Source: Candidatus Pacebacteria bacterium CG2_30_36_39 (lineage in GTDB: Bacteria; Patescibacteriota; Microgenomatia; UBA1400; PJMF01). Taken from it: a DNA stretch of 64,000 bases. The stretch covers positions 137,789-201,788 of the forward strand of contig MNZB01000003.1 in NCBI GenBank assembly GCA_001873435.1, written 5' to 3'. Below the pieces are notes generated by a model. The model was not told where the DNA came from. It did no database searches and saw only the letters and a program-made list of their open reading frames with translations. A program made the translations under genes and the position numbers. Every line of letters starts with the position of its first letter. Position 1 is the first letter of the stretch. Positions 1 through 56,448 of this stretch are shown piece by piece.

Positions 1-1694
1 AGATCATCATTTTCATGGAAATTACCTCTAGAAGCAAAAGTTGCTCCACCAGAGCTTGAGATTCTAATATCCTGGGTTCCTGGCAAGTTGCCTTGTTGAA
101 CATTTAAGAAGAACATGAAGTCACCTGTTTCGGGACTGAAAACTGGAATGTAGAAACTATTAGTTGGCATTTCTCTATATATTCTATGAGCTTCTGGTAG
201 TTCAGCGACACTAGATGTTCCTGCTCCTTGTAGAAGAGCAAAGAAATTGTTTTGTGGGCCAACAGCCCAACCTGGGAAGAATCTAGCTACATTTCTTTGG
301 GCATCTGTTTGAGTCCAGCCTTGACCGCCAATATCTGCACCTTGATAGATTTGTAACATTAAATCGGTTATGTAATTGGCTAAATTTTGACCACCATGCT
401 CACCTCTATATAGATCTCTAAGAGAAACTTCACCAATTCCTGGTAAGTTAACTCTTGGTAAGACTATTTGATTACCAGTAGCTGGATCAATTAAGGCAAA
501 AGTACCATCTGGATTTTCAATACCAGGAACAGTTAGATCAGGGAAGCTCTCACCATACATATCTAGTTCAGATTCTGGAGTATTGTGAGCAGATCTCCAA
601 GAGCCTAGTCCTAACTTGTATTCTCCAGCTGCTGTTGGACTCCAGTAAGTTGGATAGTTTTCTCCACCCTCAACATCAGGAAACACCTCTACCAACCCAT
701 CATAAGTATTAGCTCTCTCCACTAGTGCTTGTGAATATTGAAGTCTCTCTTGGTCAGTCATCTCTGCATATGGCTTAGTTACTAATTCTGGAGCTAAACC
801 CCTCTCGCCAGCTGTCCATTGACCAGTCTGACCATCGACATAAGCAACCACCACACCATTAGCATCTAAGGCTACTGGCAAACCATCTGCCCCAATTGCA
901 AGTTGCACCGCTCTATTCTCACATACACTATTAGCTCCATCTAGTGAAATAGTTAATGTTTCTCCTTGATGTCCAGTTACAAAAGAAATCGTAAAATGAG
1001 TACCAGCTGGGTAATCATCGGTTCTTCCCTGTTGTAAAACCTCAACAATAATATTGTTTGATGAAACATCAACTAGTTTCACTGCGCTTGGCGCAGCCAA
1101 TCCCCTATTGAAAATATATTGATTCATTAAATTCCAAGAATTCTCAATAACTGGATCAATAACTGGATCAATAACATTTTCTTGACCAGCATATCTTCCG
1201 TAATCAATACTCAATTCATCAAAAGGCATTGCAGTAGCAGTTTCTATTGGATTACCACCTGCTTCAGTAGCAGGAGGAACATTAGCAGTCTCAGTAGCAA
1301 CAGTAGTAGGAACAATCACATCAGGACCACCAGTTGGGCCACTAGCACAACTAGCCAAGAAGATCATCAAAAAGATCATGGTAACTAAAGTTAAAATTAA
1401 TCTCTTACGTTCTGGAGCAAAACCAACAGTCTGACTATCAAAACTCTTCTTATTAAATCCACTATCTGCTCCAACTGAAGCATAAGCTAGTTGAACATCA
1501 TCTGGCTTAAGTACAGCCTCTAACTTATATAGTTCAAACTGAACCTTTTGCCAGCCAGCAGTAAGAAGTGATTGGATTTCAGACAACCCTACTCCAGCTT
1601 CTCTACCAAACTCTTTTAATTTTGAATCAGCCTTATTCTTTTGAAAAGCAAAACGATCAAAACCTCTTTGTTCTGGAAAATTGTTTTTAGACAT
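1..1694 (-). CDS. Partial CDS running off the window start. Membrane-anchored, probably surface protein: ~100-aa N-terminal cytoplasmic segment, one TM/lipoprotein-like helix (ILTLVTMIFLMIFLASCASG), then a >450-aa extracytoplasmic domain of unknown function.
   Basis: Continuous reverse-strand reading frame from ATG (rc of cat at 1692-1694) to position 1 with no stops. Hydrophobic stretch followed by a Cys. No recognisable catalytic motif. Confidence 0.5.
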   Translation of the reverse strand, partial: MSKNNFPEQRGFDRFAFQKNKADSKLKEFGREAGVGLSEIQSLLTAGWQKVQFELYKLEAVLKPDDVQLAYASVGADSGFNKKSFDSQTVGFAPERKRLILTLVTMIFLMIFLASCASGPTGGPDVIVPTTVATETANVPPATEAGGNPIETATAMPFDELSIDYGRYAGQENVIDPVIDPVIENSWNLMNQYIFNRGLAAPSAVKLVDVSSNNIIVEVLQQGRTDDYPAGTHFTISFVTGHQGETLTISLDGANSVCENRAVQLAIGADGLPVALDANGVVVAYVDGQTGQWTAGERGLAPELVTKPYAEMTDQERLQYSQALVERANTYDGLVEVFPDVEGGENYPTYWSPTAAGEYKLGLGSWRSAHNTPESELDMYGESFPDLTVPGIENPDGTFALIDPATGNQIVLPRVNLPGIGEVSLRDLYRGEHGGQNLANYITDLMLQIYQGADIGGQGWTQTDAQRNVARFFPGWAVGPQNNFFALLQGAGTSSVAELPEAHRIYREMPTNSFYIPVFSPETGDFMFFLNVQQGNLPGTQDIRISSSGGATFASRGNFHENDD

Positions 1695-1987
1695 TTGTTT
1701 TGTAGTTTCTAGGTATATAACCTGTCGCTAATACAAAACTCTTTAACTATATAAAACTATATACTTCAGAGTCTAAAAGACTATTATAATCATTTTTTTC
1801 TTTAAATGCAACCCTTTGTATATCTTCTTATATATTAATATAGGATTGGTGTTAGCCATTAAAACAAAAAAATACCAACAAAACCACTATCCTCATAAGA
1901 CAATATTTAGCAACTTGATTTTTTTCTCCAACTTGGTTAGAATCATCTCTTCAGTTACATTGCTATTCAAAAATAGAGAAAGAACCT

Positions 1988-2155
1988 ATGGGAGCAGTAC
2001 CAAAAAACAAAATCACCAGTGTCGAACGCGGCAAAAGACGCGCCGGCAACACACCAAGCTTAAAAAAAGACACTAAAATTAGTAAAACCCCTTTACACAA
2101 ACAGGGCCTAATGGCTAGTTTCTTAAAAGCTATATCTGGCGAGAAAAAAGCTTAA
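1988..2155 (+). CDS. rpmF: Ribosomal protein L32 (55 aa; below the ORF-track size cutoff)
   Basis: Translation MGAVPKNKITSVERGKRRAGN... matches the L32 N-terminal signature AVPKxKxSxxRRxxRR. Small basic protein. Confidence 0.5.
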   Translation: MGAVPKNKITSVERGKRRAGNTPSLKKDTKISKTPLHKQGLMASFLKAISGEKKA

Positions 2156-2278: not shown

Positions 2279-2659
2279 ATGACCGAACAGGCTGATCCGA
2301 GACATGAAAAAAGAGCACAGCTCATGCAAACCATTTTTGCGCTTATGTTCTCAGGAGAAGAAGGCCAAGAATTGGAAGAACTATTTTTTCTTGAAGAAGC
2401 CAGAGAAATAATAGCTTCTTCAGCTGAAATAGACACCCAAATCACTCAGCACGCCCCAGAACGTCCGTTAACCGAGATAAACCAAGTAGATTTAGCCATT
2501 ATGCGCCAAATCATCTTTGAAGCCACACACAAAAACACCCCCAAAAAAGTCTTAATAAACGAAGCAGTAGAACTAGCAAAAGAATATGGCTCAGAAAGCT
2601 CACCAAAATTTGTAAATGGCGTGCTAGGAAAAGTCCTAATGGAGGAAACCAATGAATAA
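2279..2659 (+). CDS. nusB: Transcription antitermination factor NusB
   Basis: NusB-family motifs (ERPLTEINQVDLAIMRQ..., ...PKKVLINEAVELAKEYGSESSPKFVNGVLGKV). Internal ATG (MTEQ...) preferred over the track start at 2240. Confidence 0.8.
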   Translation: MTEQADPRHEKRAQLMQTIFALMFSGEEGQELEELFFLEEAREIIASSAEIDTQITQHAPERPLTEINQVDLAIMRQIIFEATHKNTPKKVLINEAVELAKEYGSESSPKFVNGVLGKVLMEETNE

Positions 2660-2915
2660 CCAAACATTTTTAGAAATACAAGAACTCTTGGCTCTAGCAA
2701 CGGGCCACAACTCACAAGAAATCATGCCAATCACCCAATTAGAGGTAGACCTAGGCATTGACATGGAAGAAGACTTTCCTCGCCTATTGGCTGTTATCAA
2801 CCAAAAATTTGATATCGACCTAGAACTAGACCATGTTCTAGATGAACTAGATGAAGCCGGAGACACAGTCGAACATCTAGTTAAATTGATCTTTGAAGAA
2901 GTAGAACTAGGATAA
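2652..2915 (+). CDS. Acyl-carrier-protein-like small acidic protein. The phosphopantetheine-attachment Ser is replaced by Met (DLGIDMEED instead of DLGADSLD).
   Basis: 87 aa, acidic, alignable to ACP helix II region. Located immediately upstream of rnc as acpP is in Firmicutes. 8-nt overlap with nusB (translational coupling). Confidence 0.6.
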   Translation: MNNQTFLEIQELLALATGHNSQEIMPITQLEVDLGIDMEEDFPRLLAVINQKFDIDLELDHVLDELDEAGDTVEHLVKLIFEEVELG

Positions 2916-2925
2916 AACAATTGAC

Positions 2926-3594
2926 ATGCTACCTAAGTTTAATAATCCAGAACTATTAACCACAGCCCTCTCACATCGAAGCTCATTGAATGAAGCTGAT
3001 TCTGGCACAACAGCCAAAGAATCCTATGAAAGATTTGAGTTTTTAGGCGACGCAGTTCTAGAACTTGTAACCACCGAATTCTTATTTGCCAAATACCCCA
3101 CTGACCCAGAAGGAGTTTTGACTGCATACAGAAGCGCCTTGGTCAAAACCACTACTCTAGCCTCTATAGCCAGAAAACTAGAGCTGGGCAAGATAATGTT
3201 TATGAGCAGAGGCGAAGAAGCCACTGGGGGCCGTGAAAACGAAGGCCTCTTAGCCGACGTATTCGAAGCTGTCATTGGTGGTCTATACCTCGACCAAGGC
3301 TATGAAGTAGTTAAAACATTTTTAAACGAAGAACTCTTCCCTTACTTCGAAGAAATAAAAAGTAAAAAATTATATAAAGACAGCAAAAGCGCTCTACAAG
3401 AAGCAGTTCAAGCCAGCGGCCTATCTACCCCTGAATACAAAGTGATAAACGAAGAAGGCCCAGACCACGAAAAGACATTTACCGTTGAAGTAATAGTAGC
3501 CAATAAAGTAATGGGACAAGGAACTGGCAAGAGCAAACAAATCGCTCAACAAGAAGCTGCCACTCAAGCTTTATCTGCTTTTGAAAAAAAATAA
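2926..3594 (+). CDS. rnc: Ribonuclease III
   Basis: RNase III signature ERFEFLGDAVLEL and catalytic E...DVFEAVIGGLYLD. C-terminal dsRBD (GPDHEKTFTVEV...). Confidence 0.9.
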   Translation: MLPKFNNPELLTTALSHRSSLNEADSGTTAKESYERFEFLGDAVLELVTTEFLFAKYPTDPEGVLTAYRSALVKTTTLASIARKLELGKIMFMSRGEEATGGRENEGLLADVFEAVIGGLYLDQGYEVVKTFLNEELFPYFEEIKSKKLYKDSKSALQEAVQASGLSTPEYKVINEEGPDHEKTFTVEVIVANKVMGQGTGKSKQIAQQEAATQALSAFEKK

Positions 3595-3614: not shown

Positions 3615-3643
3615 TTGAGAATTTTGACAAAAAGATATACAAT
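3615..3643 (+). promoter_or_regulatory. Sigma-70-type promoter for rpsP-khpA (TTGAGA - 17 nt - TACAAT)
   Basis: ttgaga at 3615-3620, 17-nt spacer, tacaat at 3638-3643. ~90 nt upstream of rpsP, with a possible leader hairpin (gatcttg...caagatt) between. Confidence 0.45.
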
Positions 3644-3736: not shown

Positions 3737-4147
3737 ATGTTAAAGATCAAACTCGCTCGTTTTGGTAAAACAAAACAGCCACAATACCGCATCGTTGTTA
3801 ACGAAGCCAAAGACAAAAGAGACGGCAAATATGTAGAACAAGTCGGTCGTTACGTCCCTGCTCAAATTCCAAAAATCTTAGAATTTGAAGTCGAAAAATA
3901 CAACGAATGGCTCAAAAAAGGCGCTCAACCAACTGAAACAGTAGCCAGCCTTTTCACTCGTTACACTTCAGGCAACCCTTTCCCAGCTAGAAAACCTCAA
4001 CTTTCTCGTAAAGCCAAGGCCAAAGCTGAAGCAGCCGCCAAAGAAGCTGAAGAAAAGAAAAATGCCCCAGTTGAAACTGTTGAAACCACTGCTGCTCCAG
4101 AAGCCCCAGTCGAAACTCCAGTTGAAACCGTTGCAGCTACCGAATAA
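3737..4147 (+). CDS. rpsP: Ribosomal protein S16 with a ~50-aa Ala/Glu/Lys/Pro-rich C-terminal extension
   Basis: N-terminus MLKIKLARFGKTKQPQYRIVV is the classic S16 motif. Tail contains PVETV repeats. Confidence 0.9.
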   Translation: MLKIKLARFGKTKQPQYRIVVNEAKDKRDGKYVEQVGRYVPAQIPKILEFEVEKYNEWLKKGAQPTETVASLFTRYTSGNPFPARKPQLSRKAKAKAEAAAKEAEEKKNAPVETVETTAAPEAPVETPVETVAATE

Positions 4148-4169: not shown

Positions 4170-4400
4170 ATGAAAAACTTTGTTGAGTATCTGTTGGTAC
4201 GATTAATCGATCATCCAGATGAACTTCAGGTTACTGAACAAGAAACTGCAGAAGGCTTGTTAATCCAAATCACCGTCAACCCAGAAGACATGGGACGAGT
4301 AATCGGCAAAGGTGGAAAAGTCATCAAATCAGTTCGCAAACTAGTTCAAGTCAAAGCAGCTCGTGACGGCATTCGCGTTAGAGTTGAAGTAGCTGAATAA
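4170..4400 (+). CDS. khpA: KH-domain RNA-binding protein KhpA (YlqC/UPF0109)
   Basis: VIGKGGKVIKSVR GXXG KH motif. Conserved position directly downstream of rpsP. Confidence 0.8.
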   Translation: MKNFVEYLLVRLIDHPDELQVTEQETAEGLLIQITVNPEDMGRVIGKGGKVIKSVRKLVQVKAARDGIRVRVEVAE

Positions 4401-4422: not shown

Positions 4423-4450
4423 AAAACCCGCTCAACAAGCGGGTTTTTTA
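4423..4450. terminator. Bidirectional rho-independent terminator between convergent khpA and pilO
   Basis: acccgct-caaca-agcgggt hairpin followed by tttttt, with an A-tract upstream. Confidence 0.7.
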
Positions 4451-5287
4451 TTGAGAAAAATTAACATCAGTACTAATCTGCTTTTCCAAATCACTCACTG
4501 CCAAACCCTCAATCCCAAATAAATCTGTGTTATCTCCACCAATAATCTCTGTCTGATCCTCAATCTTAGGAGGAGTAAATTTTAAAATATCCTGGAAAAT
4601 AATTTTTTCCTCATCAGTAATCTTTGGCAAAGCTGAAGCCAAAGTCGCAGAAACAGGCTTAGTATAATAATAAGTATTGAGAGTAATATCTGCCCTAGTC
4701 ATCTGATCTCCACTCAACACACTCTTACTTTCACGATCAATAGAAAGACTAGTAATTGTAGTAATAGGCGAAACTCTTTCAATCATCGTCATAAACTCTT
4801 TTACCTGATTCAACTCCCCCACCACACTCAACTCCAATTCAAGTTGATCATAATCAGCAGACCTCTTTTGCTTAATCGGAGCAACCTTTTTATTTGCCTC
4901 CTGATCTGCCTCAGAAACTATTTCCCCAGGATTAATCTTAAATTCTGTAATAGAAACACGTGTCTCATTGGCAACTGAATTCAAATTATTAAGCAACTCC
5001 AACAAAGGCTTATGAGAAGGCAAAATCTCACTCATCCTCTCTGCCTGAGCATATTCATCAGTGTATTTAAGCTGTTGTAATTCCTCTGTTTTCTTCTTTA
5101 ATTGATCTACCTTCTTTTGAGTAGTAGCAATCTTGCTTTGAGTCTGAAAAATAGCAGTTACCTGCGAATAAGTTAGAACCAACAAAACCAAACTAGTAAA
5201 AATTAAAGCACCAGCAATTACCAACTTCCTCCTGGTACTAAGAATCAAATTGAAATTGAGATTACTCAGCTTATTTAGCGTTGGCAT
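4448..5287 (-). CDS. pilO: Type IV pilus assembly protein PilO-like (bitopic, coiled coil then periplasmic domain)
   Basis: N-terminal TM (LVIAGALIFTSLVLLVLTY), coiled-coil segment. Position downstream of pilM/pilN. Confidence 0.55.
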   Translation of the reverse strand: MPTLNKLSNLNFNLILSTRRKLVIAGALIFTSLVLLVLTYSQVTAIFQTQSKIATTQKKVDQLKKKTEELQQLKYTDEYAQAERMSEILPSHKPLLELLNNLNSVANETRVSITEFKINPGEIVSEADQEANKKVAPIKQKRSADYDQLELELSVVGELNQVKEFMTMIERVSPITTITSLSIDRESKSVLSGDQMTRADITLNTYYYTKPVSATLASALPKITDEEKIIFQDILKFTPPKIEDQTEIIGGDNTDLFGIEGLAVSDLEKQISTDVNFSQ

Positions 5288-5843
5288 CAGCTGTCTCCCC
5301 CTGCTTCAATAGCTCTACTGCGATATCAATATTGTAACTGCCATTATCATCTCGACGTAGACCACTCTTATTAATTGCTGAAAACTCTTTTTTCACTGAA
5401 TCAGAATCTAAAGTATCCAGAATTTTTTCTAAGGCAAAAATATTTTCACTAGTCAATCTTAATGAAAGCTGATTCTCTTCTCCGCCATAATTCATACCAG
5501 ACAAAAATACTTGACTACCAAATAAATTAGAAAAATACTCAATCGACTGCTGCTTATTACTTCTATTCTGATAAAGATCTTTAACTGTCTTGAGCTTTTG
5601 CGTAAAAACCAAAAAAGTCATCTCCGTTGATTCCTCATTGAGAATACTAGAAGAATAAGCTTTTTCGCTCTCATTAGTAGCCTTCAACTTATTAGTTGAA
5701 AAAATATTGACACCCACCACTATAGCAAAAACAGCAAAAACCACACCAAAAACCCACATACTATATTTTTCATAAATAGCATCCTTTTCACCAACCTTAG
5801 TTAGGGTAATGCGGCGTTGAGATAAAAAATTAATCTCAGTCAT
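5271..5843 (-). CDS. pilN: Type IV pilus assembly protein PilN-like
   Basis: 190 aa, short cytoplasmic N-terminus, single TM (MWVFGVVFAVFAIVVGVNIF), periplasmic domain. Overlaps pilM/pilO as in pilMNO operons. Confidence 0.55.
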   Translation of the reverse strand: MTEINFLSQRRITLTKVGEKDAIYEKYSMWVFGVVFAVFAIVVGVNIFSTNKLKATNESEKAYSSSILNEESTEMTFLVFTQKLKTVKDLYQNRSNKQQSIEYFSNLFGSQVFLSGMNYGGEENQLSLRLTSENIFALEKILDTLDSDSVKKEFSAINKSGLRRDDNGSYNIDIAVELLKQGETADANAK

Positions 5844-5844
5844 A

Positions 5845-6852
5845 TCATGCTAATTCCCTCATTAATAAACCAAGACAAACAGAATATGTTTGCTGGTTCT
5901 CTTGAGGAATTTCTCCTGTAGCTGAAGCAAAAGGAGCTGAGAAAAGAATTTCTGTGCCTAAGCTTTCTGACAAATACTCAACCAACCCAGGCAGTTGAGA
6001 AGTACCACCAGTAATAACAATTCTAGAAAGAGTATTTTGAGGGAATTGACTTGCAAAATACCTTTGAGCCTTTTGAATTTCATTAGTCAAAGTATTAATA
6101 ACCGGGATTAACGCATTTCTAACTCTACCCTCAAATTGATTTGGATCTAAACCATAAGTTCGCTTATATTGCTCTGCTTGTTGCAAATCTAAACCTAAAG
6201 TCTGTTGTAGAGTTTTAGTTAACAAAGCACCTGCCCCAGAATGAGTAAAAACAAACTGAATCTCACCCTTAAAAATTACCACCACATCCATATTAGTCGC
6301 ACCGATATTGAGAACCATAGTTGGAGGTTCATCTGCCCCAATATCAAGCGAACGTAATAAAGACAAAACATGAGTCTCTAATAAAGTTGGCTCAATACCC
6401 ATAGCAATAAACATGTTGATAAAACGATCAACCAAGCTCTTACGTGTACCAATTAATAAAACCCTCATCTGCTCTTGCTTGCTTTTTTCTGGTCTATAAA
6501 GAACTTTGTATTGCAAAGACAAATCTTCTTTAGGAATTGGAATATGTTGCTCTGCTTGCCAATTAATAGCAGAAGCCAACTCAGCATCAGTCAAAGGAGG
6601 AATGCTAATAACCTTGGAAGAAACAATAGACTCTGGCAAGCTCAATCTAATATCAGCATGAGGAATTTTATTATCAAAAACAATATTATTCACTAATTCA
6701 CCAACCTGCTCAATTTGAAGATCATCAATTGGCATGGCAATCCCATGTGGATTCAAAGTTTCAACCGTTCTTATAATATTGGGTTGTTTTCCAGGATCAG
6801 CTGAAATAACTTTGACGGCATAAGTACCGATGTCGATGGCTGTGGCAGGCAT
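5845..6852 (-). CDS. pilM: Type IV pilus assembly protein PilM (actin-like ATPase fold)
   Basis: N-terminus MPATAIDIGTYAVKVIS (actin/FtsA-like phosphate-1 motif), 335 aa, GGTSQLPGL motif. Confidence 0.7.
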   Translation of the reverse strand: MPATAIDIGTYAVKVISADPGKQPNIIRTVETLNPHGIAMPIDDLQIEQVGELVNNIVFDNKIPHADIRLSLPESIVSSKVISIPPLTDAELASAINWQAEQHIPIPKEDLSLQYKVLYRPEKSKQEQMRVLLIGTRKSLVDRFINMFIAMGIEPTLLETHVLSLLRSLDIGADEPPTMVLNIGATNMDVVVIFKGEIQFVFTHSGAGALLTKTLQQTLGLDLQQAEQYKRTYGLDPNQFEGRVRNALIPVINTLTNEIQKAQRYFASQFPQNTLSRIVITGGTSQLPGLVEYLSESLGTEILFSAPFASATGEIPQENQQTYSVCLGLLMRELA

Positions 6853-6864
6853 GATTTTTTTTAT

Positions 6865-7671
6865 TTAGTTTTTAATAATAGAACTTCCACTGACTAAGGC
6901 ATATTCCATGAACGCTGGTGCGGTAGACAATGTTCTTTTAACTTCAAAAGTACGAGCTTCTTGTCCAGCTAAAGAATTCTGCGCTTGGGAGTTGATCGTA
7001 AACTGACTAGTAGCTGGAGAGCCGACAATTTTAATATCAGTATCATTGTAGACAGGCTTTACTCTAACAAATTGATCTGTTGCAGAAGTAAAAAGTGTAT
7101 ATCCATACTTATACGGAGCTGGACCAACATCATTAGCTATGAAGTTATCTCCCCTTGTACCAGCACCACTACAATTACCAACGGCATAATGCTTGGCTGT
7201 GATATTCCCAGCATCATTTGAATAAACCGAAAGCAACAAAGAAGCACTATCAGCACAAGCAGCTTCTGTAGCCCAATAAAAACTAATACTACCAGCTGCT
7301 GGCACTAATAACTCAGTACTAGTACCCTGCTTTAAGTGAGTTTCCAAAATATTGCTTTTAGTAATACTGTAATTAATATTTGAATTACTTTCTGTAAGAT
7401 CTAGCGAAGCTATTTCTTCAGAAATGCCAGAAACATCATTAGCTTCTTCATGTTGATAGATACTTGCCAAAGCAGCCTCTACACCAGATTCAGCAGCATT
7501 AAATACTCTAGTAGTATCTTCTTGTTGGATAGCAATTTCTGCTTGTTGAGAGGTTCTAGCAGCAAGAGAAAGTCCTAGAGATAGGATGACCACCATGATT
7601 AAGAGGATAATTAAACCTACTTGACCAGATTGTCCTTGCCACTTTGATTTGGATGGGCTTTTCATAGCCAT
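6865..7671 (-). CDS. Pilus-associated protein with pilin-like N-terminal hydrophobic segment. Minor pilin/PilX-like candidate; non-canonical prepilin motif.
   Basis: Basic N-terminus then GQVGLIILLIMVVILSLGLSLAA hydrophobic helix. No Glu at +5. First gene of the pilMNO transcription unit. Confidence 0.35.
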   Translation of the reverse strand: MAMKSPSKSKWQGQSGQVGLIILLIMVVILSLGLSLAARTSQQAEIAIQQEDTTRVFNAAESGVEAALASIYQHEEANDVSGISEEIASLDLTESNSNINYSITKSNILETHLKQGTSTELLVPAAGSISFYWATEAACADSASLLLSVYSNDAGNITAKHYAVGNCSGAGTRGDNFIANDVGPAPYKYGYTLFTSATDQFVRVKPVYNDTDIKIVGSPATSQFTINSQAQNSLAGQEARTFEVKRTLSTAPAFMEYALVSGSSIIKN

Positions 7672-19927: not shown

Positions 19928-19951
19928 ACTCCCAATTTGGGAGTTTTTTTA
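19928..19951. terminator. Bidirectional intrinsic terminator shared by tRNA-Val and the convergent 1000-aa gene
   Basis: actccca-att-tgggagt perfect hairpin flanked by aaaaa and ttttttt. Confidence 0.7.
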
Positions 19952-22951
19952 TGCCAGTATTTCCTTTGTTTCTTTTAAATTTTCAGTTGAATCAGCCCAT
20001 TTTTTATAAGCTTGGTCTATTATCTCATCCAAAATGGGACCGAACTTCGCAATAATATTCTCTATACTAGCCTCTTCCCTACCCAGCCCAAGAAAAAGCT
20101 TATGGATATAGTCAAAATGGTTTTGACCTTGAGTAACTATTCCCTCAGTGACAAAAATCGACTTAGTTTTTCTCTTATTTTCTGGAGGATTCCAACTTAC
20201 TTTTTTATAATGTTCTAGCACTGCCAAAACTTTCTCTCTTGTTGGAATAAAACCAATGCTAACTAAATATGGATATTTACTCTTAAACTCTTCTAATTTA
20301 CTTTGTTTTTTAGAGTCCTTATTTATTTCTCCAGGATTATCATTAAGATGAACTCTTTTTTCTTTAATAGCTACTAAAAATTCTTCTGCACCTTTTTTTG
20401 CTCCATCTTCCGGATCATGATTATGAATACCTCTGTTTTGAATTATTGATATCTTCCCTTCTTTGCCACTTTCTAGTTCTAGAGTTGAAACCCTTGTCAT
20501 TTTTCCATCCACTATTTTTCTAATAGAAACTATATGGTGAGTTCCTTTGCTGCATTTATCTGAATAACCTCCCTTACCCACACAATGTGACATGGCGCTA
20601 CCCTCATCAACTAATTGTTGAGAGCTTGTGAGTGGAACAAAAAAGTATGTTGTTTTCCCCCATTCAAATCTATATTCTGGGTCGGAGAACAATGGTTTCC
20701 ATTCCCTAGTATCTACGAGATCTTTAATATTTTCTGGAAAATTATGCTGAGGCAAGTGTTCAGTTTGAGCAAACAAAGCCAGCTCACTAAAAGTTAAAGG
20801 TAAACCAAGTTGATTTAATCTCTGGTCATTGTTTAAAAACAAAAAATCCTCAGCAATAGTTTTTGCTAGTTCCAACTGCAGTTTACCAAGATCTTTGTCC
20901 ATGAACACTTCTGTTTTAAGCAATAACAATGGAGCAATAAAACTTCTACTGAATCCTTCTATCGAGTCTTTAATTAGATCAAATTTGTCGATGTCAATTT
21001 TTTCTAATTTTTCCCATAATTTTTCAAAAAAAACCTCATCTGCGTAATCACTTCCAACTTCATTATTCATTTTATTGAAAATGATTGAAAGGTTGTGTTC
21101 AGAAAAATCAATTTTTAGAGCAGAAAGAATTCCAGCAATTTTTTCTAAACAAGCTAGGGCAACCTCAATTTGTTCGGCAGAATAATTATTAAAAAGATCA
21201 TAAACTTCAACCGTTCTGCATAGTAACTCGCTAAAAAATTCATTATTTGAAAATTTTCTAATAGCCTCGACTTCTGCTTCTTTATTATTTTTTCCTTCCA
21301 ATCCTTGCAAAATAATTGTTTCAGAGGTAATCGAAGACCCAGATTTATAATCGAAGACTTTTTTACCAGTCAGAGGGTGTACTTGATTTACAATTTCCTT
21401 CCAATCATCTATTGAGAAGCTAGCTCTAATTTCAGCAAGAGCTTCTTTTTCTGGAAAACCAAACTTATCATAACTAAGTAGTAATAACTGAATTATCCAT
21501 GATGTCAGTGCTATTTCATTCTCTATGTCATCTGGAACTGGAAAATCTTGATTTTTGTATAAATATGTTAAAAAGGGTTTCCAATTTACAAATTTGTAGT
21601 TTTTATTGAGAGTATATCGATATATTTTTTGGATATTTTGCATTCTGCTTTCAGCAAAAGTCCAAACGTCAAGTCTTTCTGGTAAGGTTTTATTATTTTT
21701 TAGAAACCAATTCATTAATTTGTCATGGGTTTTTATTTCAAAAAAACTAAGATTTGATAGCAACCACTCAGTTTTTTTTGAATCTGGTCTATCAATATAG
21801 ATATCTAAAACACTTTGGGGGAATTTTCTTATTGTAGTTAAGTTTAGCTCTTTTATTTCTTCATCATCCCAGGTACTAAAGATTTTTCTTAATATTTGAT
21901 TTTTATTTATTCCTTTGACAATGGCAAATGCTTCAGCAAATTGTTTTCTTCTTTCTGAATTAGGGTTTTTTGATAATAGTTTCCAGATATATTTTCCATT
22001 TATTTCTGGAGGAAAAGCGTGTTGTGCAGAGAAAATAAAGTCCAATCTATCATTTTCAAATAAAAAATCAGCAGTTTCTTTTGTTAAACCATGAAACTTT
22101 GGAATTACGTCTTTTAATACAAACCATGGAAAATCATTATTCTCAACCATTTTTTGGATTAGAAAATTATGATCAAGGGTTGGATATAAATCTAGATTTT
22201 TTAAAATTGCCCAGGCTTTTTCTTTATCAGTCAATAAATTTATTAGATCATTATGAGAGAGATCTGGAAATTTTTCTGGATGTTTTGCCATTAGAAAAGG
22301 ATTTTCCTTAACCATTTCGATCGGAAAATTTGCTGAATCTGTTGCAAACCAATCCCAATAGAGTTCAAAAACATGAGGATAAGAAGACATTACTGAGACT
22401 GCTTCTTCATCGCTAAAATATGGAGGGTTTTTTGGAATTTCCTCTGACTTGGTTTTCTTTACAAATTTGGCAATTACTTCTATATCAACTTGAGAAAAAC
22501 TTTCTTTATATTCAGAATTTACAAATTTATCAAATGTTAAAGGATTTTTTTCTGCTAAAACCAACAAATACCTTTTTGACAAGGCAGTTTTATTGTTTTT
22601 TAAATAGACCTCCAGTAGATCTGCTGTTGCATCGGCTGGACTAGTTTCCCAAGCTCCAGACGGATCAGCTGCTTGATAAATCGTATTATGTTTATCTGAA
22701 ATTTCATAAAGCAGTTCTTCAGAGATGAGCTCTGGTTCTGTGGTGGCAAGTGATTTTGCTCTAACAATAGCACTCTCTTGACCAGAATCTATGGCTGTCA
22801 AAATGTATTGAATTTTTATCTCTGATGGAAAGGCTTTTACTTGCTCATCATAGTCTTTTGGTTTGTCATACCAATTACGGATTAACTCATCGAGTTGATC
22901 CATTTTTCTTTTATGAGAATTATCCAAGGTAGTTGCTATATTTTCTTGCAT
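19949..22951 (-). CDS. 1000-aa orphan protein. Largely alpha-helical N-terminal ~800 aa of unknown function. C-terminal ~150 aa resembles the uncharacterised PcfJ-like family (EG-x2-M-x-HCVG...Y...G..I.S.R...Q.RG..N).
   Basis: Uninterrupted ORF. Motif EGSAMSHCVGKGGYSDKCSKGTHHIVSIRK...IQNRGIHN. Very AT-rich codon usage relative to flanking housekeeping genes. Confidence 0.45.
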   Translation of the reverse strand: MQENIATTLDNSHKRKMDQLDELIRNWYDKPKDYDEQVKAFPSEIKIQYILTAIDSGQESAIVRAKSLATTEPELISEELLYEISDKHNTIYQAADPSGAWETSPADATADLLEVYLKNNKTALSKRYLLVLAEKNPLTFDKFVNSEYKESFSQVDIEVIAKFVKKTKSEEIPKNPPYFSDEEAVSVMSSYPHVFELYWDWFATDSANFPIEMVKENPFLMAKHPEKFPDLSHNDLINLLTDKEKAWAILKNLDLYPTLDHNFLIQKMVENNDFPWFVLKDVIPKFHGLTKETADFLFENDRLDFIFSAQHAFPPEINGKYIWKLLSKNPNSERRKQFAEAFAIVKGINKNQILRKIFSTWDDEEIKELNLTTIRKFPQSVLDIYIDRPDSKKTEWLLSNLSFFEIKTHDKLMNWFLKNNKTLPERLDVWTFAESRMQNIQKIYRYTLNKNYKFVNWKPFLTYLYKNQDFPVPDDIENEIALTSWIIQLLLLSYDKFGFPEKEALAEIRASFSIDDWKEIVNQVHPLTGKKVFDYKSGSSITSETIILQGLEGKNNKEAEVEAIRKFSNNEFFSELLCRTVEVYDLFNNYSAEQIEVALACLEKIAGILSALKIDFSEHNLSIIFNKMNNEVGSDYADEVFFEKLWEKLEKIDIDKFDLIKDSIEGFSRSFIAPLLLLKTEVFMDKDLGKLQLELAKTIAEDFLFLNNDQRLNQLGLPLTFSELALFAQTEHLPQHNFPENIKDLVDTREWKPLFSDPEYRFEWGKTTYFFVPLTSSQQLVDEGSAMSHCVGKGGYSDKCSKGTHHIVSIRKIVDGKMTRVSTLELESGKEGKISIIQNRGIHNHDPEDGAKKGAEEFLVAIKEKRVHLNDNPGEINKDSKKQSKLEEFKSKYPYLVSIGFIPTREKVLAVLEHYKKVSWNPPENKRKTKSIFVTEGIVTQGQNHFDYIHKLFLGLGREEASIENIIAKFGPILDEIIDQAYKKWADSTENLKETKEILA

Positions 22952-49593: not shown

Positions 49594-49611
49594 TTTTCAG
49601 GGAATAAAAAG

Positions 49612-49685
49612 TGGGTGTACTACGAATCGAACGTAGGACCTCTGTCTTATCAGGACAGCGCTCTAACCATCTGAGCTATACACCC
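49612..49685 (-). tRNA. tRNA-Ile (anticodon GAU). CCA not encoded.
   Basis: rc gives GGGTGTATAGCTCAGATGGTTAGAGCGCTGTCCTGATAAGACAG...GGTTCGATTCGTAGTACACCCA. Anticodon loop CTGATAA. Confidence 0.8.
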
Positions 49686-50070: not shown

Positions 50071-50245
50071 GTCATCTGCTCTTTTTAAGGGCAGTGAGAC
50101 AGATGTTAACATCAGAATAAATTCTGAGCTAAACACGGTGGTGAAAAATGGCCTAGATATGGTGATCATAGGACTTGTTATTTCGAGAACATTACTGTTC
50201 TCGGGAGAAAGGAGGTCGTGATATCTCCTACCCGTTCTCCTTAGA

Positions 50246-51770
<1,525 letters not shown>

Positions 51771-52132
51771 TAAAAATTTATTTTTAAGTTTGAAACTGAT
51801 CTTTTTTTCTTCGTTATCTAAAAGATTTATTGTTTCTGGTTGATAATTTACCCCTGCTGGGATAAATCATCGATTTGGAATTAACGGATTCTTTTTTTAA
51901 AAAAAATCCATCAATGTAACATATTTCACCACCATGTTCATATCAGAATATGAATCCATGGTGTAAATTCTGTCTTAAGTCTATTAATTTGTTAATGTTC
52001 AACTTCTTTTTCACCGAAAAAAAGAAACAATCCCCGCTGGGGGCCGTCTCTTCTTTCCCGCGATTTGTGAATTCTATGTCATGTGACACGAATTGTGAAG
52101 TGGGAGATATTGTATCAAGTAATCATGAGATG

Positions 52133-53253: not shown

Positions 53254-54213
53254 CTAGACTAAGAAATTTTCTTTGGCAATCTCAGCAACTTTTCTTTTAT
53301 AAGCATCTGGATCTTTAGTGTAAAAACGAGGCAAAATCGGCTGAAACTTGGGATTTAAAACAACTGCTTTTGTAATATCCTGCCAAGATATTTTTCCATA
53401 ATAGAGTTCTTTTAAAGGAAAATTATTTTCTACCATAAACTTGGTAGTTTCCACAAAACCCTCAAAATAAACATAATCCTTAGTAAAACCTCCTGGCCTG
53501 CTAGTATCAGTGAGTCCTCTTTTCTTTTTGAAGGTTAAAGTAAAAGCTCGTTCTGCATCGCCTAGATAGTGATTTAAATATTGCCATACTTCTAAAAATG
53601 ATTCTTCCTGAGCTTTAATTGTGGCTAAAAAGTTTAGGGCAGCCATGTAGGTTAACTGCATTTTTTGTGGATACATAGCATGTAAGACAGCTAAACCTTC
53701 TTCAGTTTTTAGGTATGGAGCAAAACCGTAGTTCTTTTTTTTCTTAAACCAAGGTTGTTGTTCATAATTAATTCGACGTAGGGCATGAGTTCCAATTTCG
53801 TGGTAAAGCAAACTATCTAGGTCTTCTTTATAAATTGAACAAGGGAGTCTTAGTTTAATTTCGTTGGCATTGATAGCTGCTCTACTGACGAACTCTGCCG
53901 ACCAAATAATCTCAAATTTTCTTTCCAATCCATGAAGTTTGAGAAAATTTCTAATTTCACGAGAAACAATTTCTTCATTCAAAAGTTCGCCTCGTTGAGA
54001 CTGAAGCTCTTCAATAGAAAATTTGGTAAAAGTAGTTTCAATAATTTTTTCAGCTAAATCAATATATTTTGTATTGGGTAAACCATTTTGCACTAAATCT
54101 TCAGTAGCGAAAAAACGATAATAATTAAATTGAGGATTAAAGTTGGGACTAGCTAGAAAACGTTGTTTCTCTGCTAAAAAATTAGTTGGTTGTAGATCTG
54201 CAACGAGTCCCAT
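53254..54213 (-). CDS. DUF1704 / QEGLA-motif protein (putative HExxH zinc metallopeptidase)
   Basis: HEIGTHALR (HExxH) and TEEGLAV (QEGLA-like motif). 319 aa. Confidence 0.55.
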   Translation of the reverse strand: MGLVADLQPTNFLAEKQRFLASPNFNPQFNYYRFFATEDLVQNGLPNTKYIDLAEKIIETTFTKFSIEELQSQRGELLNEEIVSREIRNFLKLHGLERKFEIIWSAEFVSRAAINANEIKLRLPCSIYKEDLDSLLYHEIGTHALRRINYEQQPWFKKKKNYGFAPYLKTEEGLAVLHAMYPQKMQLTYMAALNFLATIKAQEESFLEVWQYLNHYLGDAERAFTLTFKKKRGLTDTSRPGGFTKDYVYFEGFVETTKFMVENNFPLKELYYGKISWQDITKAVVLNPKFQPILPRFYTKDPDAYKRKVAEIAKENFLV

Positions 54214-54230
54214 GTTTTTAACTTAGCTTT

Positions 54231-55511
54231 TTAAGCAGGTCTAATAACAAATCCTGCCAAATCATTCCTACCTATTTCAATTTTTTGAGTGCCTTTATTG
54301 AGTTTTTTGGAAACAACTGCTGAAGTAGTAATTACTTTATCTTTGAGTTTGAATTTCAATTCCACTACAGGGCGCTTACCTTCTCCAGCTACTTGTTGAT
54401 ACCACAAGAGATCATCGACATCTATTAAGCCTAGTTCTTTTGCTAGTTCACTAGAAATAATGGTGCGAAAACGACCAGTGTTAATAAGGGCTTTTTCATC
54501 GATTTTTTGTTTATCGTCACCATAGATAGTAACTGTTTCTTCAATTTCAATAATTGGAATTTCGCCGTCTTCCTTGATTTTACTGGCAAAATTTTCAGCA
54601 AACAGAGCTTGGGCAATTCTAACCCCATGTTCTGTGCTTAGAACATTGAGATCTCTAACTCTTTCCAAGCGTCTTCTGAGTCCCGCTTTATTTGCTACTT
54701 GAATAGATAAGCCAGGATAAGCATTGAGCTCTACTACCATAGGACCTTTTTCTTGATGGATAAAAATATCAACTCCGGTAAAAACTAGGCCAGCTGCTCT
54801 TGCCGCTCCTACCGCAGTCAAAAGAATTTCTTTCCAAAATGGAACGCGAATGCCATTGAGCTTAATTTTTGTATCGGGCATGTATTGAATTAATTGATTT
54901 TTATGAGCAGCTGCGTGAGTAGTAATGCCGGTAGCTATATCAACACCTACTCCCAAAGCTCCCTGGCTTTGATTGGCGCGTCCACCAGATTCTTCAGTTG
55001 GCAAACGTAAAAGAGCCATAACCGGAACGCTATTAAAGACGACCACTCTAACATCAGGAGTGCCTTTATAGCTATATTTTAGTAGTTTGGGGTGAATTGG
55101 AATACGTTCTTCAACAATGATGTTGTGATTTGAACCATGAGTACTATATTCTCCAGACAAAATGTCACCACAATGCAATTTAATATCATCGAGACTCCAA
55201 ACGTGACCTATAGCATCAGTCCAATGTTCTTTATCAGCATGTTGATTGCGGAAAGCAACTACTCCCTTACCAGCATGGCCATTAGTAGGTTTGATCACGA
55301 AGTCTTTTTCTAGTTTTTTCCAGTCAAATTCTTCAATGTCTTCTGAGGTTGCCAAGATACCATAAACTTGAGCGGTGGGAATATTTTGGCTTTGTAATAA
55401 TAATTTAGTAGCGTATTTTGAAATACAAAAAGATCGAGCTTTGCGAGAGTTGAGTGGGACATAAAGCTGGTTGCGAGCATTCATGCCCAGGATGTCATTG
55501 GCGAGTACCAT
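54231..55511 (-). CDS. RimK-like ATP-grasp ligase (alpha-L-glutamate-ligase-related) with ~110-aa C-terminal extra domain
   Basis: N-terminus MVLANDILGMNARNQLY typical of RimK-related ligases. ATP-grasp core (KPTNGHAGKGV, VVELNAYPGL). Internal start preferred. Confidence 0.6.
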   Translation of the reverse strand: MVLANDILGMNARNQLYVPLNSRKARSFCISKYATKLLLQSQNIPTAQVYGILATSEDIEEFDWKKLEKDFVIKPTNGHAGKGVVAFRNQHADKEHWTDAIGHVWSLDDIKLHCGDILSGEYSTHGSNHNIIVEERIPIHPKLLKYSYKGTPDVRVVVFNSVPVMALLRLPTEESGGRANQSQGALGVGVDIATGITTHAAAHKNQLIQYMPDTKIKLNGIRVPFWKEILLTAVGAARAAGLVFTGVDIFIHQEKGPMVVELNAYPGLSIQVANKAGLRRRLERVRDLNVLSTEHGVRIAQALFAENFASKIKEDGEIPIIEIEETVTIYGDDKQKIDEKALINTGRFRTIISSELAKELGLIDVDDLLWYQQVAGEGKRPVVELKFKLKDKVITTSAVVSKKLNKGTQKIEIGRNDLAGFVIRPA

Positions 55512-55515
55512 AAGC

Positions 55516-56448
55516 TTATTCCTCTTCTTCAATGATTGAAGTAAAGCGCACTCTCTCCAAGAGACGCAAACCGGTATATCTACCAATTAAAATATTTAGG
55601 CCAGCAACAGCTAATAAACTGAATTCTGGATAAAGTAAGACGAATTTTTGAATTGACTCTAGATTGATTAATAGTGCACAAAGAATAGCAACTAGAAGAG
55701 TTTCAAAAGTAATACTCAGGGCTTCTTTTTGACTACTGAATAGTTGAGTACTCATAAAGTTTTCTGTTAAGAGCATGATAATTAAAAGTGGAAAAATACT
55801 AATGCTTAGGAGTGAGCTAACATTAATCCAGGAAGCAAGTATTAGTAAACTGAGGATTAAGAAAGTTACTACCCAAAGCAACATGGCAGTTCTGGGTAGC
55901 AATGGTAGCTTGAAGTGTTTTACAGCGCTACGAGCAATGGTTGCGGCTGCTAAGACTGCTACAAATACTAAGACACCAGTTATGATTCCGGTTGAAACAA
56001 AAGCCACAGATAAGACGGCTGGAATGTAGACACCAAAGCCTTTTAGACCCACAACATGACGGGAAACAGCAATTAATGAGGCAATTAATGGAAATAATAA
56101 CATCAACACAATAATATTGGCTGGTAAGCCATTGGCAATGGCTCTACGAATGGCGTGTTGTAAAGGATTGTGCCAAGACAATCCTCCGATGGGATGTTCG
56201 TCTAAGTAGGCAGCTAATTTGCTTTTTTGCTTACCACCAGTTTCTGTAATGTCTTGATCTTTTTTTTCTTGAATTTTTTGGTCTAGTTCAGCCGATGAAG
56301 ATGCTAGATTTCCAGCATCGCTAGCTTCGATGGGGCTGGTTGCTTCTAATACCTGTTTTAGTGGTTCTACTGTTAAGGCTTTGGCTGGAAAGACAGCGAT
56401 AAGTCCGAATAGTAGAACAAATAGAAGGGTTAATCCGAGCTTTTTCAT
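55516..56448 (-). CDS. Seven-TM membrane protein with N-terminal signal peptide (7TM partner of the ATP-grasp cassette; no fused transglutaminase domain)
   Basis: Signal peptide, ~90-aa exported segment, then 7 hydrophobic helices, acidic C-terminus EEEE. Confidence 0.5.
   Translation of the reverse strand: MKKLGLTLLFVLLFGLIAVFPAKALTVEPLKQVLEATSPIEASDAGNLASSSAELDQKIQEKKDQDITETGGKQKSKLAAYLDEHPIGGLSWHNPLQHAIRRAIANGLPANIIVLMLLFPLIASLIAVSRHVVGLKGFGVYIPAVLSVAFVSTGIITGVLVFVAVLAAATIARSAVKHFKLPLLPRTAMLLWVVTFLILSLLILASWINVSSLLSISIFPLLIIMLLTENFMSTQLFSSQKEALSITFETLLVAILCALLINLESIQKFVLLYPEFSLLAVAGLNILIGRYTGLRLLERVRFTSIIEEEE

What the first reader, a model, noticed from the sequence alone, without database searches (positions are those of the whole stretch)
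2652..2915. ACP homologue lacking the phosphopantetheine Ser (DSLD changed to DMEED)
Seen: an 87-aa acidic protein alignable to acyl carrier protein, but with the invariant Ser of DSL replaced by Met (EVDLGIDMEEDF). It is translationally coupled to nusB (8-nt overlap) and sits immediately upstream of rnc. Established: the Ser is the 4'-phosphopantetheine attachment site, and acpP lies directly upstream of rnc in Firmicutes. Inference: this is an ACP relic retained after loss of fatty-acid synthesis and repurposed for a non-carrier (protein-interaction) role, as known for some ACPs. The alternative is a pseudo-ACP under relaxed selection.
Basis: partly seen in the sequence, partly recalled or inferred. 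Interest (0 to 1): 0.6.

Follow-up and report, generated by a model that had tools for sequence, protein, structure and literature searches.

The report
Serine-less acyl carrier protein relic
A tiny acidic protein of an ultra-small (CPR/Patescibacteria) bacterium has the acyl-carrier-protein fold and sits in the ancestral acpP gene slot, but has lost the serine that carries the cofactor; it is nevertheless strongly conserved next to, and in one lineage fused to, the transcription factor NusB, so an old lipid-synthesis protein seems to have been given a new job.

Summary
ORF 2652..2915 (+) encodes an 87-aa protein (pI 4.05, net charge about -19). It overlaps nusB by 8 nt and ends 10 nt before rnc.

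It is a true ACP homologue:
- The family profile aligns to E. coli/B. subtilis ACP (hhalign 97.5%, E 9e-12).
- ACP's DSLD is replaced by the five-residue D-M-E-E-D. The Ser column is M38 or E39 depending on the aligner, never Ser/Thr.

About 155 family members were retrieved, down to 24% identity. None has the Ser. All share a family-specific C-terminus, E-x-E-L-G.

All 17 contexts examined keep rpmF-nusB-X-rnc-rpsP-khpA. This looks like the rpmF-plsX-fab-acpP (E. coli) and acpA-rnc (B. subtilis) arrays with the lipid genes removed.

dN/dS is 0.01-0.05, so it is not a decaying pseudo-ACP.

New here: a stable natural NusB::X fusion in four assemblies, spanning two lineages at dS 0.9. It points to a role with NusB/RNase III in rRNA transcription or processing. 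That role is inferred, not shown.

Absence of fab/acpS from the whole genome was not tested. None occurs in the 64 kb window, and the literature reports the phylum lacks the pathway.

Verdict: a new bacterial variant of a known kind.

The parts
1988..2155 (+). Probable rpmF (ribosomal protein bL32), 55 aa, first gene of the conserved array
   Evidence: Weak Pfam Ribosomal_L32p match, E 0.039. The N-terminus MGAVPKNKITS..RGKRR is L32-like. It is conserved at 60-89% identity upstream of nusB in all 12 loci compared.
2279..2659 (+). nusB (126 aa from the ATG at 2279; the mechanical ORF starts at TTG 2240)
   Evidence: Pfam NusB 2.2e-23 and TIGR01951 2.8e-28, above its cut-off.
2641..2645 (+). GGAGG Shine-Dalgarno for X, inside the end of nusB
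   Evidence: Read directly from the sequence; 6 nt before the ATG at 2652.
2652..2915 (+). X: Ser-less ACP-fold protein, 87 aa, pI 4.05
2652..2659 (+). 8-nt overlap of the nusB stop with the X start (ATGAATAA)
   Evidence: Read directly from the sequence.
2748..2774 (+). D33-L-G-I-D-M-E-E-D41: remodelled phosphopantetheine-attachment loop. M38 is at 2763-2765 and E39 at 2766-2768.
   Evidence: It aligns to ACP's DLGADSLD with a one-residue insertion. Across the family, column 38 is L/M/V/P/F and column 39 is E/D; there is no conserved Ser/Thr. In the model this stretch is loop and helix II starts only at F42.
2775..2810 (+). Helix II (F42-F53) with the family-specific conserved residues F42, P43, R44 and N50
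   Evidence: By the hhalign register, R44 and N50 fall on E41 and E47 of the E. coli ACP recognition helix. R is found in 84 of 129 members at column 44, and column 50 (N) is nearly invariant (>=90% of members).
2895..2912 (+). Family-specific C-terminal tail E82-E-V-E-L-G87, at the end of an extended helix IV
   Evidence: 85 of 129 members end in ELG. The Leu and Gly codons vary synonymously and the spacer to rnc is 1-91 nt, so the constraint is on the protein and not on an embedded ribosome-binding site.
2926..3594 (+). rnc (RNase III), 222 aa
   Evidence: TIGR02191 4.3e-74; Pfam Ribonucleas_3_3 plus dsrm.
3737..4147 (+). rpsP (ribosomal protein bS16)
   Evidence: Pfam Ribosomal_S16 9.5e-20. 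A promoter-like site lies at 3615-3643.
4170..4400 (+). khpA (KH-domain RNA-binding protein)
   Evidence: Pfam KH_KhpA-B 1.2e-21.

Best explanation
X descends from the housekeeping acyl carrier protein gene (acpP/acpA) and still lies in the ancestral rpmF...acp-rnc...rpsP-khpA neighbourhood. The lineage is a large clade of Patescibacteria; source names are Pacebacteria, Woesebacteria and Paceibacterota.

In this clade the protein kept the four-helix ACP fold and its strong negative charge, but lost the phosphopantetheine serine. The first turn of helix II became an acidic loop with a conserved hydrophobic residue (N/D-[L/M]-E-E-D). Two acidic positions of the recognition helix became Arg and Asn. 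Helix IV was extended to an almost invariant C-terminal E-x-E-L-G.

It can therefore no longer carry acyl chains as a thioester. I propose it works as a small acidic protein-binding subunit or adaptor. The remodelled loop, with its hydrophobic knob, and the acidic C-terminal tail would be the contact surfaces.

Its most likely partners are the products of its own operon, NusB and/or RNase III. That would place it in rRNA transcription antitermination or precursor-rRNA processing.

Shown: homology, fold, absence of Ser across the family, positional orthology, purifying selection, operon conservation, and a natural NusB::X fusion.

Inferred: that it binds proteins, and that NusB or RNase III is the partner.
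For: Fold and homology:
- AF2 pLDDT 92.
- hhalign to AcpP/AcpA gives 97.5%, E 8.7e-12.
- 43 of 64 family members hit PF00550.

No Ser:
- Columns 38 and 39 are hydrophobic and acidic in 129 aligned members.
- No correctly placed DSL motif occurs in 155 short members.

Positional orthology:
- B. subtilis acpA-rnc-smc-ftsY operon (PMC4838370).
- E. coli rpmF-plsX-fabHDG-acpP.
- The window and 17 other loci read L32-like, nusB, X, rnc, rpsP, khpA.

Selection:
- dN/dS is 0.01 (L004 vs L005, dS 0.33) and 0.05 (L002 vs L007, dS 1.1).
- The C-terminal ELG is kept through synonymous codon change.

Link to NusB:
- The X start overlaps the nusB stop by 8 nt and has its own SD.
- No terminator-like site separates nusB, X and rnc.
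- A 222-aa NusB::X fusion protein occurs in four independent assemblies as two variants. The variants differ by dS 0.89 and dN 0.028, and dN/dS is 0.01 in the X domain.

Precedent: Plasmodium mitochondrial ACP replaced the Ser by Phe after FASII loss. It is essential as a binding partner of Isd11-Nfs1, and the Phe is part of the interface (PMC8547962).

No lipid-synthesis or PPTase gene was found in the 64 kb window. Patescibacteria are reported to lack fatty-acid synthesis.
Against: - No direct evidence of any binding partner exists.
- AF2 of the natural fusion folds both domains (pLDDT 88) but gives pTM of only 0.59. That means no confident docking of X on NusB. The alignment was shallow and unpaired for NusB.
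- NusB (pI 4.7) and RNase III (pI 5.0) are themselves acidic, so simple charge complementarity with X is lacking.
- Fusion of two adjacent, overlapping genes needs only a small indel. It is weaker Rosetta-stone evidence than fusion of unlinked genes.
- The acp-rnc adjacency is ancestral and has no known functional meaning in Bacillus, so operon membership may be purely historical.
- X diverges faster than its neighbours at long range: 28-44% identity against 52-67% for NusB and Rnc.
- The fusion proteins lack the ELG terminus; they end in ...EELINAL.
- Absence of AcpS and fab genes from the whole genome was not checked.
Confidence: 0.6

Rival explanations
1. X is a non-carrier protein-binding module, but its partner has nothing to do with NusB or RNase III. 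The gene sits there only because acpP did. The retained function would be one of the moonlighting roles of ACP that do not need fatty-acid synthesis. Examples from general knowledge are regulation of an SMC/MukB-type ATPase, a RelA/SpoT enzyme, a cysteine desulfurase, or a ribosome-assembly factor as for mitochondrial ACP.
Against: The NusB::X fusion is stable across dS 0.9, with dN/dS 0.01 in the X domain. A covalent link to NusB would be hard to tolerate if X had to work elsewhere in another complex. The tight nusB-X-rnc spacing is kept in all 17 loci examined.
Confidence: 0.27
2. X binds scavenged fatty acids or lysolipids non-covalently in the ACP hydrophobic pocket. It would act as a soluble lipid chaperone for a cell that cannot make its own lipids.
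For: The ACP fold has an acyl-binding cavity (general knowledge). The core hydrophobic positions are conserved. Patescibacteria are thought to take up host lipids.
Against: No lipid-metabolism gene is nearby in any locus. The operon is entirely RNA and ribosome related, and X is fused to NusB in one lineage. No precedent is known to me for an apo-ACP binding free lipid without the tether. The family-specific conserved residues are surface and terminal polar residues (R44, N50, E82-G87), not cavity residues.
Confidence: 0.06
3. X is still a carrier protein, but with a different attachment point. Examples would be the invariant C-terminal Gly carboxylate (as in ubiquitin-like sulfur carriers, or LysW-type amino-group carriers that use a C-terminal residue), or post-translational extension or trimming of the acidic tail by an ATP-grasp ligase and a carboxypeptidase.
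For: The C-terminal E-x-E-L-G is nearly invariant and constrained at the protein level. The same window encodes an ATP-grasp (RimK-like) ligase, a MATCAP-like carboxypeptidase and a 7TM-transglutaminase cluster at 53254-56448.
Against: No activating enzyme (E1-like, LysX-like) is linked to X in any locus. The ATP-grasp cluster is 50 kb away and its co-occurrence with X was not tested. The natural NusB::X fusions end in ...EELINAL, without the terminal Gly. The ACP fold is unrelated to the known C-terminal carrier proteins.
Confidence: 0.05
4. X is a decaying pseudo-ACP or a spurious ORF under relaxed selection.
For: The single sequence fails the Pfam and NCBIfam thresholds. X is the fastest-evolving gene of the array at long range.
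Against: dN/dS is 0.01-0.05. The length is constant at about 87 aa and the motifs are conserved in more than 150 clusters at 50% identity. The AF2 model is confident, pLDDT 92. It has a strong SD.
Confidence: 0.01

Closest known systems
Housekeeping acyl carrier protein AcpP (E. coli) / AcpA (B. subtilis), Pfam PF00550
   Different: No Ser at the attachment site; DSLD is replaced by D-[ML]-E-E-D with a one-residue insertion. The first turn of helix II is not helical in the model. Arg and Asn replace the acidic helix-II residues E41 and E47. Helix IV is longer and ends in the invariant ELG. No fab genes are nearby. The NCBIfam ACP equivalog score is 15 against a cut-off of 83.
Plasmodium falciparum mitochondrial ACP (mACP, PF3D7_1208300) and other apicomplexan Ser-less ACPs
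   Same: An ACP retained after loss of the local FASII pathway. The Ser is replaced by a residue that cannot be modified, and a hydrophobic side chain sits at or next to the old Ser site (Phe113 there; L/M at column 38 here). It is kept under selection for a protein-binding role (PMC8547962).
   Different: That case is eukaryotic and organellar, and the partner is known (the LYR protein Isd11 with Nfs1). Here the protein is bacterial. No LYR-type protein was looked for or seen in the loci examined. The operon context and the fusion point to NusB/RNase III. The ELG tail and the loop insertion are specific to this family. That paper found no Ser-less ACP outside Apicomplexa and Vitrella.
ACP-fold subunits of ribosome-assembly and other large complexes (for example mt-SAF32 in the Trypanosoma mt-SSU assemblosome, 6sga_Fc; mitochondrial ACP in the MALSU1-L0R8F8 module, from general knowledge)
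   Different: Those are mitochondrial, and most still use the acyl-phosphopantetheine to plug into an LYR protein. No evidence here places X on ribosomal particles.
Specialised ACP RPA2022 of Rhodopseudomonas palustris (2kw2) and PigH-type or PUFA-synthase tandem ACP domains
   Different: The two solved-structure matches (RPA2022 and PigH) keep a Ser in the aligned DLG[IV]DS motif and belong to secondary-metabolite or specialised lipid pathways; many of the tandem megasynthase domains read DLGIDT instead. X does not have the Ser and is not in such a pathway.

Membership tests
ACP / PP-binding superfamily (Pfam PF00550, ACP-like fold) | Four-helix ACP fold | tested here: met
ACP / PP-binding superfamily (Pfam PF00550, ACP-like fold) | Significant sequence similarity to the family profile | tested here: met
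   The window protein alone scores 14.5 bits, below the 20.8 cut-off. At family level, 43 of 64 members hit PF00550, best 9.5e-12. hhalign to AcpP/AcpA gives 97.5%, E 8.7e-12. The profile hits PDB ACPs at 1e-4.
Functional (holo) acyl/peptidyl carrier protein | Conserved Ser in the D-S-L motif at the N-terminus of helix II, the 4'-phosphopantetheine attachment site | tested here: not met
   The Ser column is M38 (HMMER) or E39 (hhalign). Across 129 aligned members, column 38 is L/M/V/P/F and column 39 is E/D. No correctly placed DSL motif occurs in 155 short members.
Functional (holo) acyl/peptidyl carrier protein | Modification by AcpS/Sfp-type phosphopantetheinyl transferase encoded in the genome | not testable with these tools
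   No PF01648 protein is among the window's listed ORFs of 120 aa or more. The rest of the genome could not be scanned, and modification needs biochemistry.
Housekeeping AcpP (NCBIfam ACP equivalogs) | Score above the equivalog cut-off | tested here: not met
   NF005079 scores 15.2 bits against a cut-off of 83.
Housekeeping AcpP (positional orthologue) | Gene position: downstream of rpmF(-plsX-fab) and immediately upstream of rnc | tested here: met
   The window and 17 related loci read L32-like, nusB, X, rnc, rpsP, khpA. Reference arrays: B. subtilis acpA-rnc and E. coli rpmF-plsX-fabHDG-acpP. The fab and plsX genes themselves are absent, and nusB is interposed.
Ser-less 'divergent ACP' of the Plasmodium mACP type | ACP fold, Ser replaced by a non-modifiable residue, retained under selection | tested here: met
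   This is an analogy of kind, not common descent; the two losses are independent.
Ser-less 'divergent ACP' of the Plasmodium mACP type | Absence of the FASII pathway and PPTase in the same compartment or genome | not tested
   Only the 64 kb window was scanned, and none was found. Papers state that Patescibacteria lack fatty-acid biosynthesis.
Ser-less 'divergent ACP' of the Plasmodium mACP type | Binds an LYR-motif protein (Isd11) | not tested
   No partner was identified. No LYR-family protein was seen in the loci, and none was specifically searched for.

The most novel reading that the evidence does not exclude
X is a dedicated, lineage-specific subunit of the NusB-dependent rRNA transcription-antitermination and RNase III processing machinery of Microgenomates-type Patescibacteria. 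An acyl-carrier-protein fold would have been recruited from lipid synthesis into RNA biogenesis, with the remodelled Ser loop and the invariant C-terminal ELG tail as the new interaction or modification sites.
Probability: 0.25. Interest if true: 0.75.

Novelty: new variant of a known kind. Interest (0 to 1): 0.58.

Why it matters
Ser-less ACPs kept for a non-carrier function have so far been described in apicomplexan mitochondria. The key paper found none elsewhere except in Vitrella. This finding shows the same evolutionary outcome in a large bacterial clade that has lost lipid synthesis.

Two handles make the question experimentally tractable. There is a fixed operon partner set (NusB, RNase III), and there is a natural NusB fusion. 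Together they allow a test of what the protein part of ACP does once the cofactor is gone.

It also matters for annotation. Some members are labelled 'acyl carrier protein' or 'phosphopantetheine-binding protein' by pipelines. That label could wrongly suggest lipid or polyketide capacity in CPR genomes. Most other members are labelled 'hypothetical'.

If the NusB link holds, it adds an unrecognised component to rRNA synthesis in organisms known for unusual ribosomes.

Tried and rejected
1. phmmer of the single protein against the PDB put designed 'Pizza' beta-propeller repeats on top (E 1e-11). These are summed sub-threshold repeats, each with i-Evalue above 100, and were rejected as an artefact.
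2. The weak UbiD_N hit (E 0.078) was ignored.
3. The search for related loci with the broad alignment A3 failed because no conserved 7-10 column stretch was available. A genome-wide search for acpS and fab genes was therefore not possible.
4. I tested whether the conserved ELG merely reflects an embedded ribosome-binding site for rnc. This was rejected: six Leu codons and four Gly codons are used, and the spacer is 1-91 nt.
5. dN/dS between the window gene and its relatives is mostly uninformative because dS is saturated (pS 0.75-0.91). Closer pairs among the relatives were used instead.
6. AF2 of the natural NusB::X fusion was run to look for docking. An earlier MAFFT alignment split the X sequences across NusB and was discarded. 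The final run gave pTM 0.59, which is inconclusive.
7. Charge complementarity with NusB or Rnc was checked; both are acidic, so it gives no support.
8. Literature searches for ACP in CPR/Patescibacteria, or for ACP with NusB, found no description of this family.
9. Cluster look-ups gave few taxon names, so the exact taxonomic span of the family is not established.

Full report
**1. The observation**

ORF 2652..2915 on the + strand starts with ATG and encodes 87 aa. A GGAGG Shine-Dalgarno lies at 2641-2645, 6 nt upstream of the ATG. The upstream gene is nusB (Pfam 2.2e-23; TIGR01951 above its cut-off). Its TAA stop at 2657-2659 overlaps the X start by 8 nt. The downstream gene, starting at 2926 after a 10-nt spacer, is rnc (TIGR02191 4.3e-74).

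X has 22 acidic and 3 basic residues, a pI of 4.05 and a net charge of about -19. E. coli AcpP has the same pI. Its only Ser is S21, in the loop after helix I, and that position varies among orthologues.

**2. Is it an ACP homologue?**

Taken alone, the sequence is sub-threshold:
- PF00550 scores 14.5 bits against a cut-off of 20.8.
- The NCBIfam ACP model gives E 0.02.
- phmmer against PDB ACPs gives E about 0.1 over the full length.
- The apparent top hits, designed 'Pizza' propellers, are a repeat-summing artefact.

The family context settles the question:
- Two word-indexed searches and one exhaustive HMMER search of 1.84 billion cluster representatives gave 209 hits. About 130 of the listed ones are 80-106-aa proteins; the rest are megasynthases with tandem ACP domains.
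- A profile of close relatives hits the PigH ACP domain (1.3e-4) and the specialised ACP 2kw2 (2.4e-4) in the PDB.
- A 64-member family profile aligns to E. coli AcpP, B. subtilis AcpA and a metagenomic ACP with hhalign probability 97.5%, E 8.7e-12.
- 43 of the 64 members individually match PF00550, best 9.5e-12.
- The AlphaFold2 model has pLDDT 92 and pTM 0.81, with helices at 3-17, 42-53, 59-69 and 73-86.

**3. The attachment site**

ACP reads D-L-G-A-D-S-L-D. X reads D33-L-G-I-D-M-E-E-D41, which is one residue longer.

The two aligners disagree on the register. HMMER places M38 on the Ser. hhalign places E39 on the Ser and treats M38 as the insertion. Either way there is no Ser or Thr.

In 129 aligned family members, column 38 is L, M, V, P or F and column 39 is E or D. 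S/T occur only sporadically and at shifting positions. Members without the insertion are unambiguous: ELGVTPVDF, DLGITETDF and DLGLTAPDI against DLGADSLDT. A motif search found a correctly placed DSL only in P0216, a genuine ACP retrieved by a word match.

In the model, helix II begins only at F42. The first helical turn, which carries the Ser in ACPs, is a loop here.

Two further family-specific features stand out:
- R44 and N50 fall on E41 and E47 of the E. coli recognition helix.
- Helix IV is extended and ends in E-x-E-L-G. 85 of 129 members end in exactly ELG.

The ELG conservation acts on the protein. Six Leu codons and four Gly codons are used, and the distance to rnc varies from 1 to 91 nt. 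It is therefore not an embedded ribosome-binding site.

**4. Genomic context and descent**

The exact protein is in NCBI as a hypothetical protein of a Candidatus Pacebacteria MAG, phylum Minisyncoccota/Patescibacteria. The named relatives are Pacebacteria, Woesebacteria, Paceibacterota and 'Patescibacteria group'.

In all 17 related loci whose DNA or gene calls I could see, the order is the same: small L32-like gene, nusB, X, rnc, rpsP, khpA. These loci span 24-75% identity to X. The array is usually followed by pilO/N/M on the other strand.

For reference, B. subtilis has an acpA-rnc-smc-ftsY operon (PMC4838370). E. coli has rpmF-plsX-fabH-fabD-fabG-acpP-fabF. From general knowledge, ffh-rpsP-khpA follows ftsY in Bacillus. 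The CPR array therefore looks like the ancestral ribosomal/lipid/RNA cluster with the lipid genes removed and nusB inserted. On that basis X is the positional orthologue of acpP/acpA.

None of the window's 48 listed ORFs of 120 aa or more, nor the ORF cut by the left end of the window, is a fab, pls or PPTase gene. Papers state that Patescibacteria lack fatty-acid biosynthesis and probably scavenge lipids (PMC12455944; PMC9938205). I could not scan the rest of this genome.

**5. Selection**

Comparisons with the window gene are saturated at synonymous sites. Closer pairs give usable figures:

| Pair | dS | dN | dN/dS |
|---|---|---|---|
| L004 vs L005 | 0.33 | 0.004 | 0.01 |
| L002 vs L007 | 1.11 | 0.05 | 0.05 |

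At long range X diverges faster than its neighbours: 28-44% identity against 52-67% for NusB and RNase III. Length, motifs and position are nevertheless kept. The 'pseudo-ACP under relaxed selection' alternative is refuted.

**6. A new lead: a natural NusB::X fusion**

Among the representative hits, P0133 (222 aa) has a NusB domain at residues 1-120. A linker of about 10 residues follows, and then an X domain that still begins with the old start Met (...EEAV-MNQEEIF...).

A second variant, P0219, is 94% identical. Together they occur in four independent assemblies, always in the same locus. The two variants differ by about 70 synonymous and about 14 non-synonymous changes (dS 0.89, dN 0.028). 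dN/dS is 0.01 in the X domain. The fusion is therefore real, has persisted over species-level divergence, and its X domain is under strong constraint.

The fusion, the 8-nt overlap and the absence of terminator-like sites between nusB, X and rnc together argue that X works with NusB, and possibly with RNase III.

The limits of this evidence:
- Adjacent overlapping genes fuse easily.
- AF2 of the fusion gives good domains (pLDDT 88) but pTM 0.59, so no confident docking.
- NusB and RNase III are acidic.
- The fusion lacks the ELG terminus.

**7. Mechanism proposed**

X cannot be a thioester carrier. I propose that it is a small acidic binding subunit. Its remodelled Ser loop, a conserved hydrophobic residue flanked by acidic ones, would take the place of the acyl-phosphopantetheine arm as a contact element, as Phe113 does in Plasmodium mACP. 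Its C-terminal E-x-E-L-G tail would be a second contact or modification site.

The most likely setting is NusB-dependent rRNA transcription and RNase III processing. I estimate the probabilities as follows:
- About 0.9 that X is a non-carrier derivative of AcpP under selection.
- About 0.3-0.35 that its partner is NusB or RNase III.
- About 0.27 that the partner is unrelated.
- About 0.06 for a non-covalent lipid chaperone.
- About 0.05 for a carrier using another attachment site.
- About 0.01 for a decaying gene.

**8. Comparison with what is known**

By fold, sequence and position, X belongs to the ACP/PP-binding superfamily. It fails the defining functional feature of a carrier protein, the Ser, and the NCBIfam AcpP equivalog cut-off. 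It should therefore not be annotated 'acyl carrier protein' or 'phosphopantetheine-binding protein', as some pipelines do.

In kind it resembles the apicomplexan Ser-less mitochondrial ACP (PMC8547962). That paper reports no such proteins outside Apicomplexa and Vitrella. My literature searches found no description of a bacterial counterpart.

**9. Verdict**

It is a new bacterial variant of a known kind, with an unexpected and testable link to NusB. Interest is moderate to fairly high for people working on ACP or on CPR biology. The function itself remains inferred.

Noticed in passing
window 53254..56448 (- strand): A cluster of three genes: a MATCAP/DUF1704-like carboxypeptidase (53254-54213, 1e-29), an ATP-grasp ligase of the ATPgrasp_ST/RimK type (54231-55586, 1.6e-59) and a 7TM_transglut membrane protein (55516-56448). 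This is a predicted system for ligating or trimming peptide tails. Whether the acidic C-terminal tail of X could be a substrate is pure speculation.
   Followed up: no
P0045, P0056, P0078, P0083, P0149 and about 25 other long proteins: PfaA-like megasynthases of about 3000 aa carry 4-6 tandem carrier domains that read DLGIDT. That is Thr where the phosphopantetheine Ser should be. Across the 60 long hits, Thr was counted 150 times at this position and Ser 84 times. P0045 has the domain order KS-AT-carrier domains-KR-DH, with a C-terminal fused PPTase domain.
   Followed up: partly
window 50245..51773 (-), 49611..49685 (-): A full-length 16S rRNA gene without insertion is followed by tRNA-Ile(GAT). 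No 23S rRNA follows it in the window; the next gene downstream is an MFS transporter on the other strand. The rRNA operon therefore appears to be split. The 16S leader contains GTTGAACATTAACAA, which is vaguely BoxA-like; this was not tested.
   Followed up: no
window 4448..7671 (- strand) and the same position in L001, L002, L010-L014, L016: Type IV pilus assembly genes pilM and pilO, an unassigned ORF between them (pilN by position; no Pfam hit), and a PilX_N-like gene directly follow khpA on the opposite strand. recG lies beyond them. This wider synteny is conserved across the clade.
   Followed up: partly
window 19949..22951 (-): A 1000-aa protein whose only Pfam match is a PcfJ-like domain at residues 761-847 (3e-13). 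A DUF5660 protein lies next to it at 23009-23674.
   Followed up: no
L009 2764..2854: In Pacebacteria GW2011_GWA1_46_10 the X-rnc spacer is 91 nt. It contains a long, nearly perfect inverted repeat (ttttgcttatgattttttct...agaaaaaatcataagcaaaa), so nusB-X and rnc may be uncoupled transcriptionally there.
   Followed up: no
window 3..1727 (- strand): A long ORF of at least 575 aa runs off the left end of the window and has no Pfam match. ORFs 34550-36247, 41791-42579, 46878-47432, 56866-57417 and 24819-25640 also have no Pfam family.
   Followed up: no
P0036 (123 aa), P0027/P0032-34 (95 aa): Some orthologues are annotated with C- or N-terminal extensions. P0036 continues 36 aa past the ELG, which suggests a lost stop codon or a mis-call. 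This was not examined.
   Followed up: no
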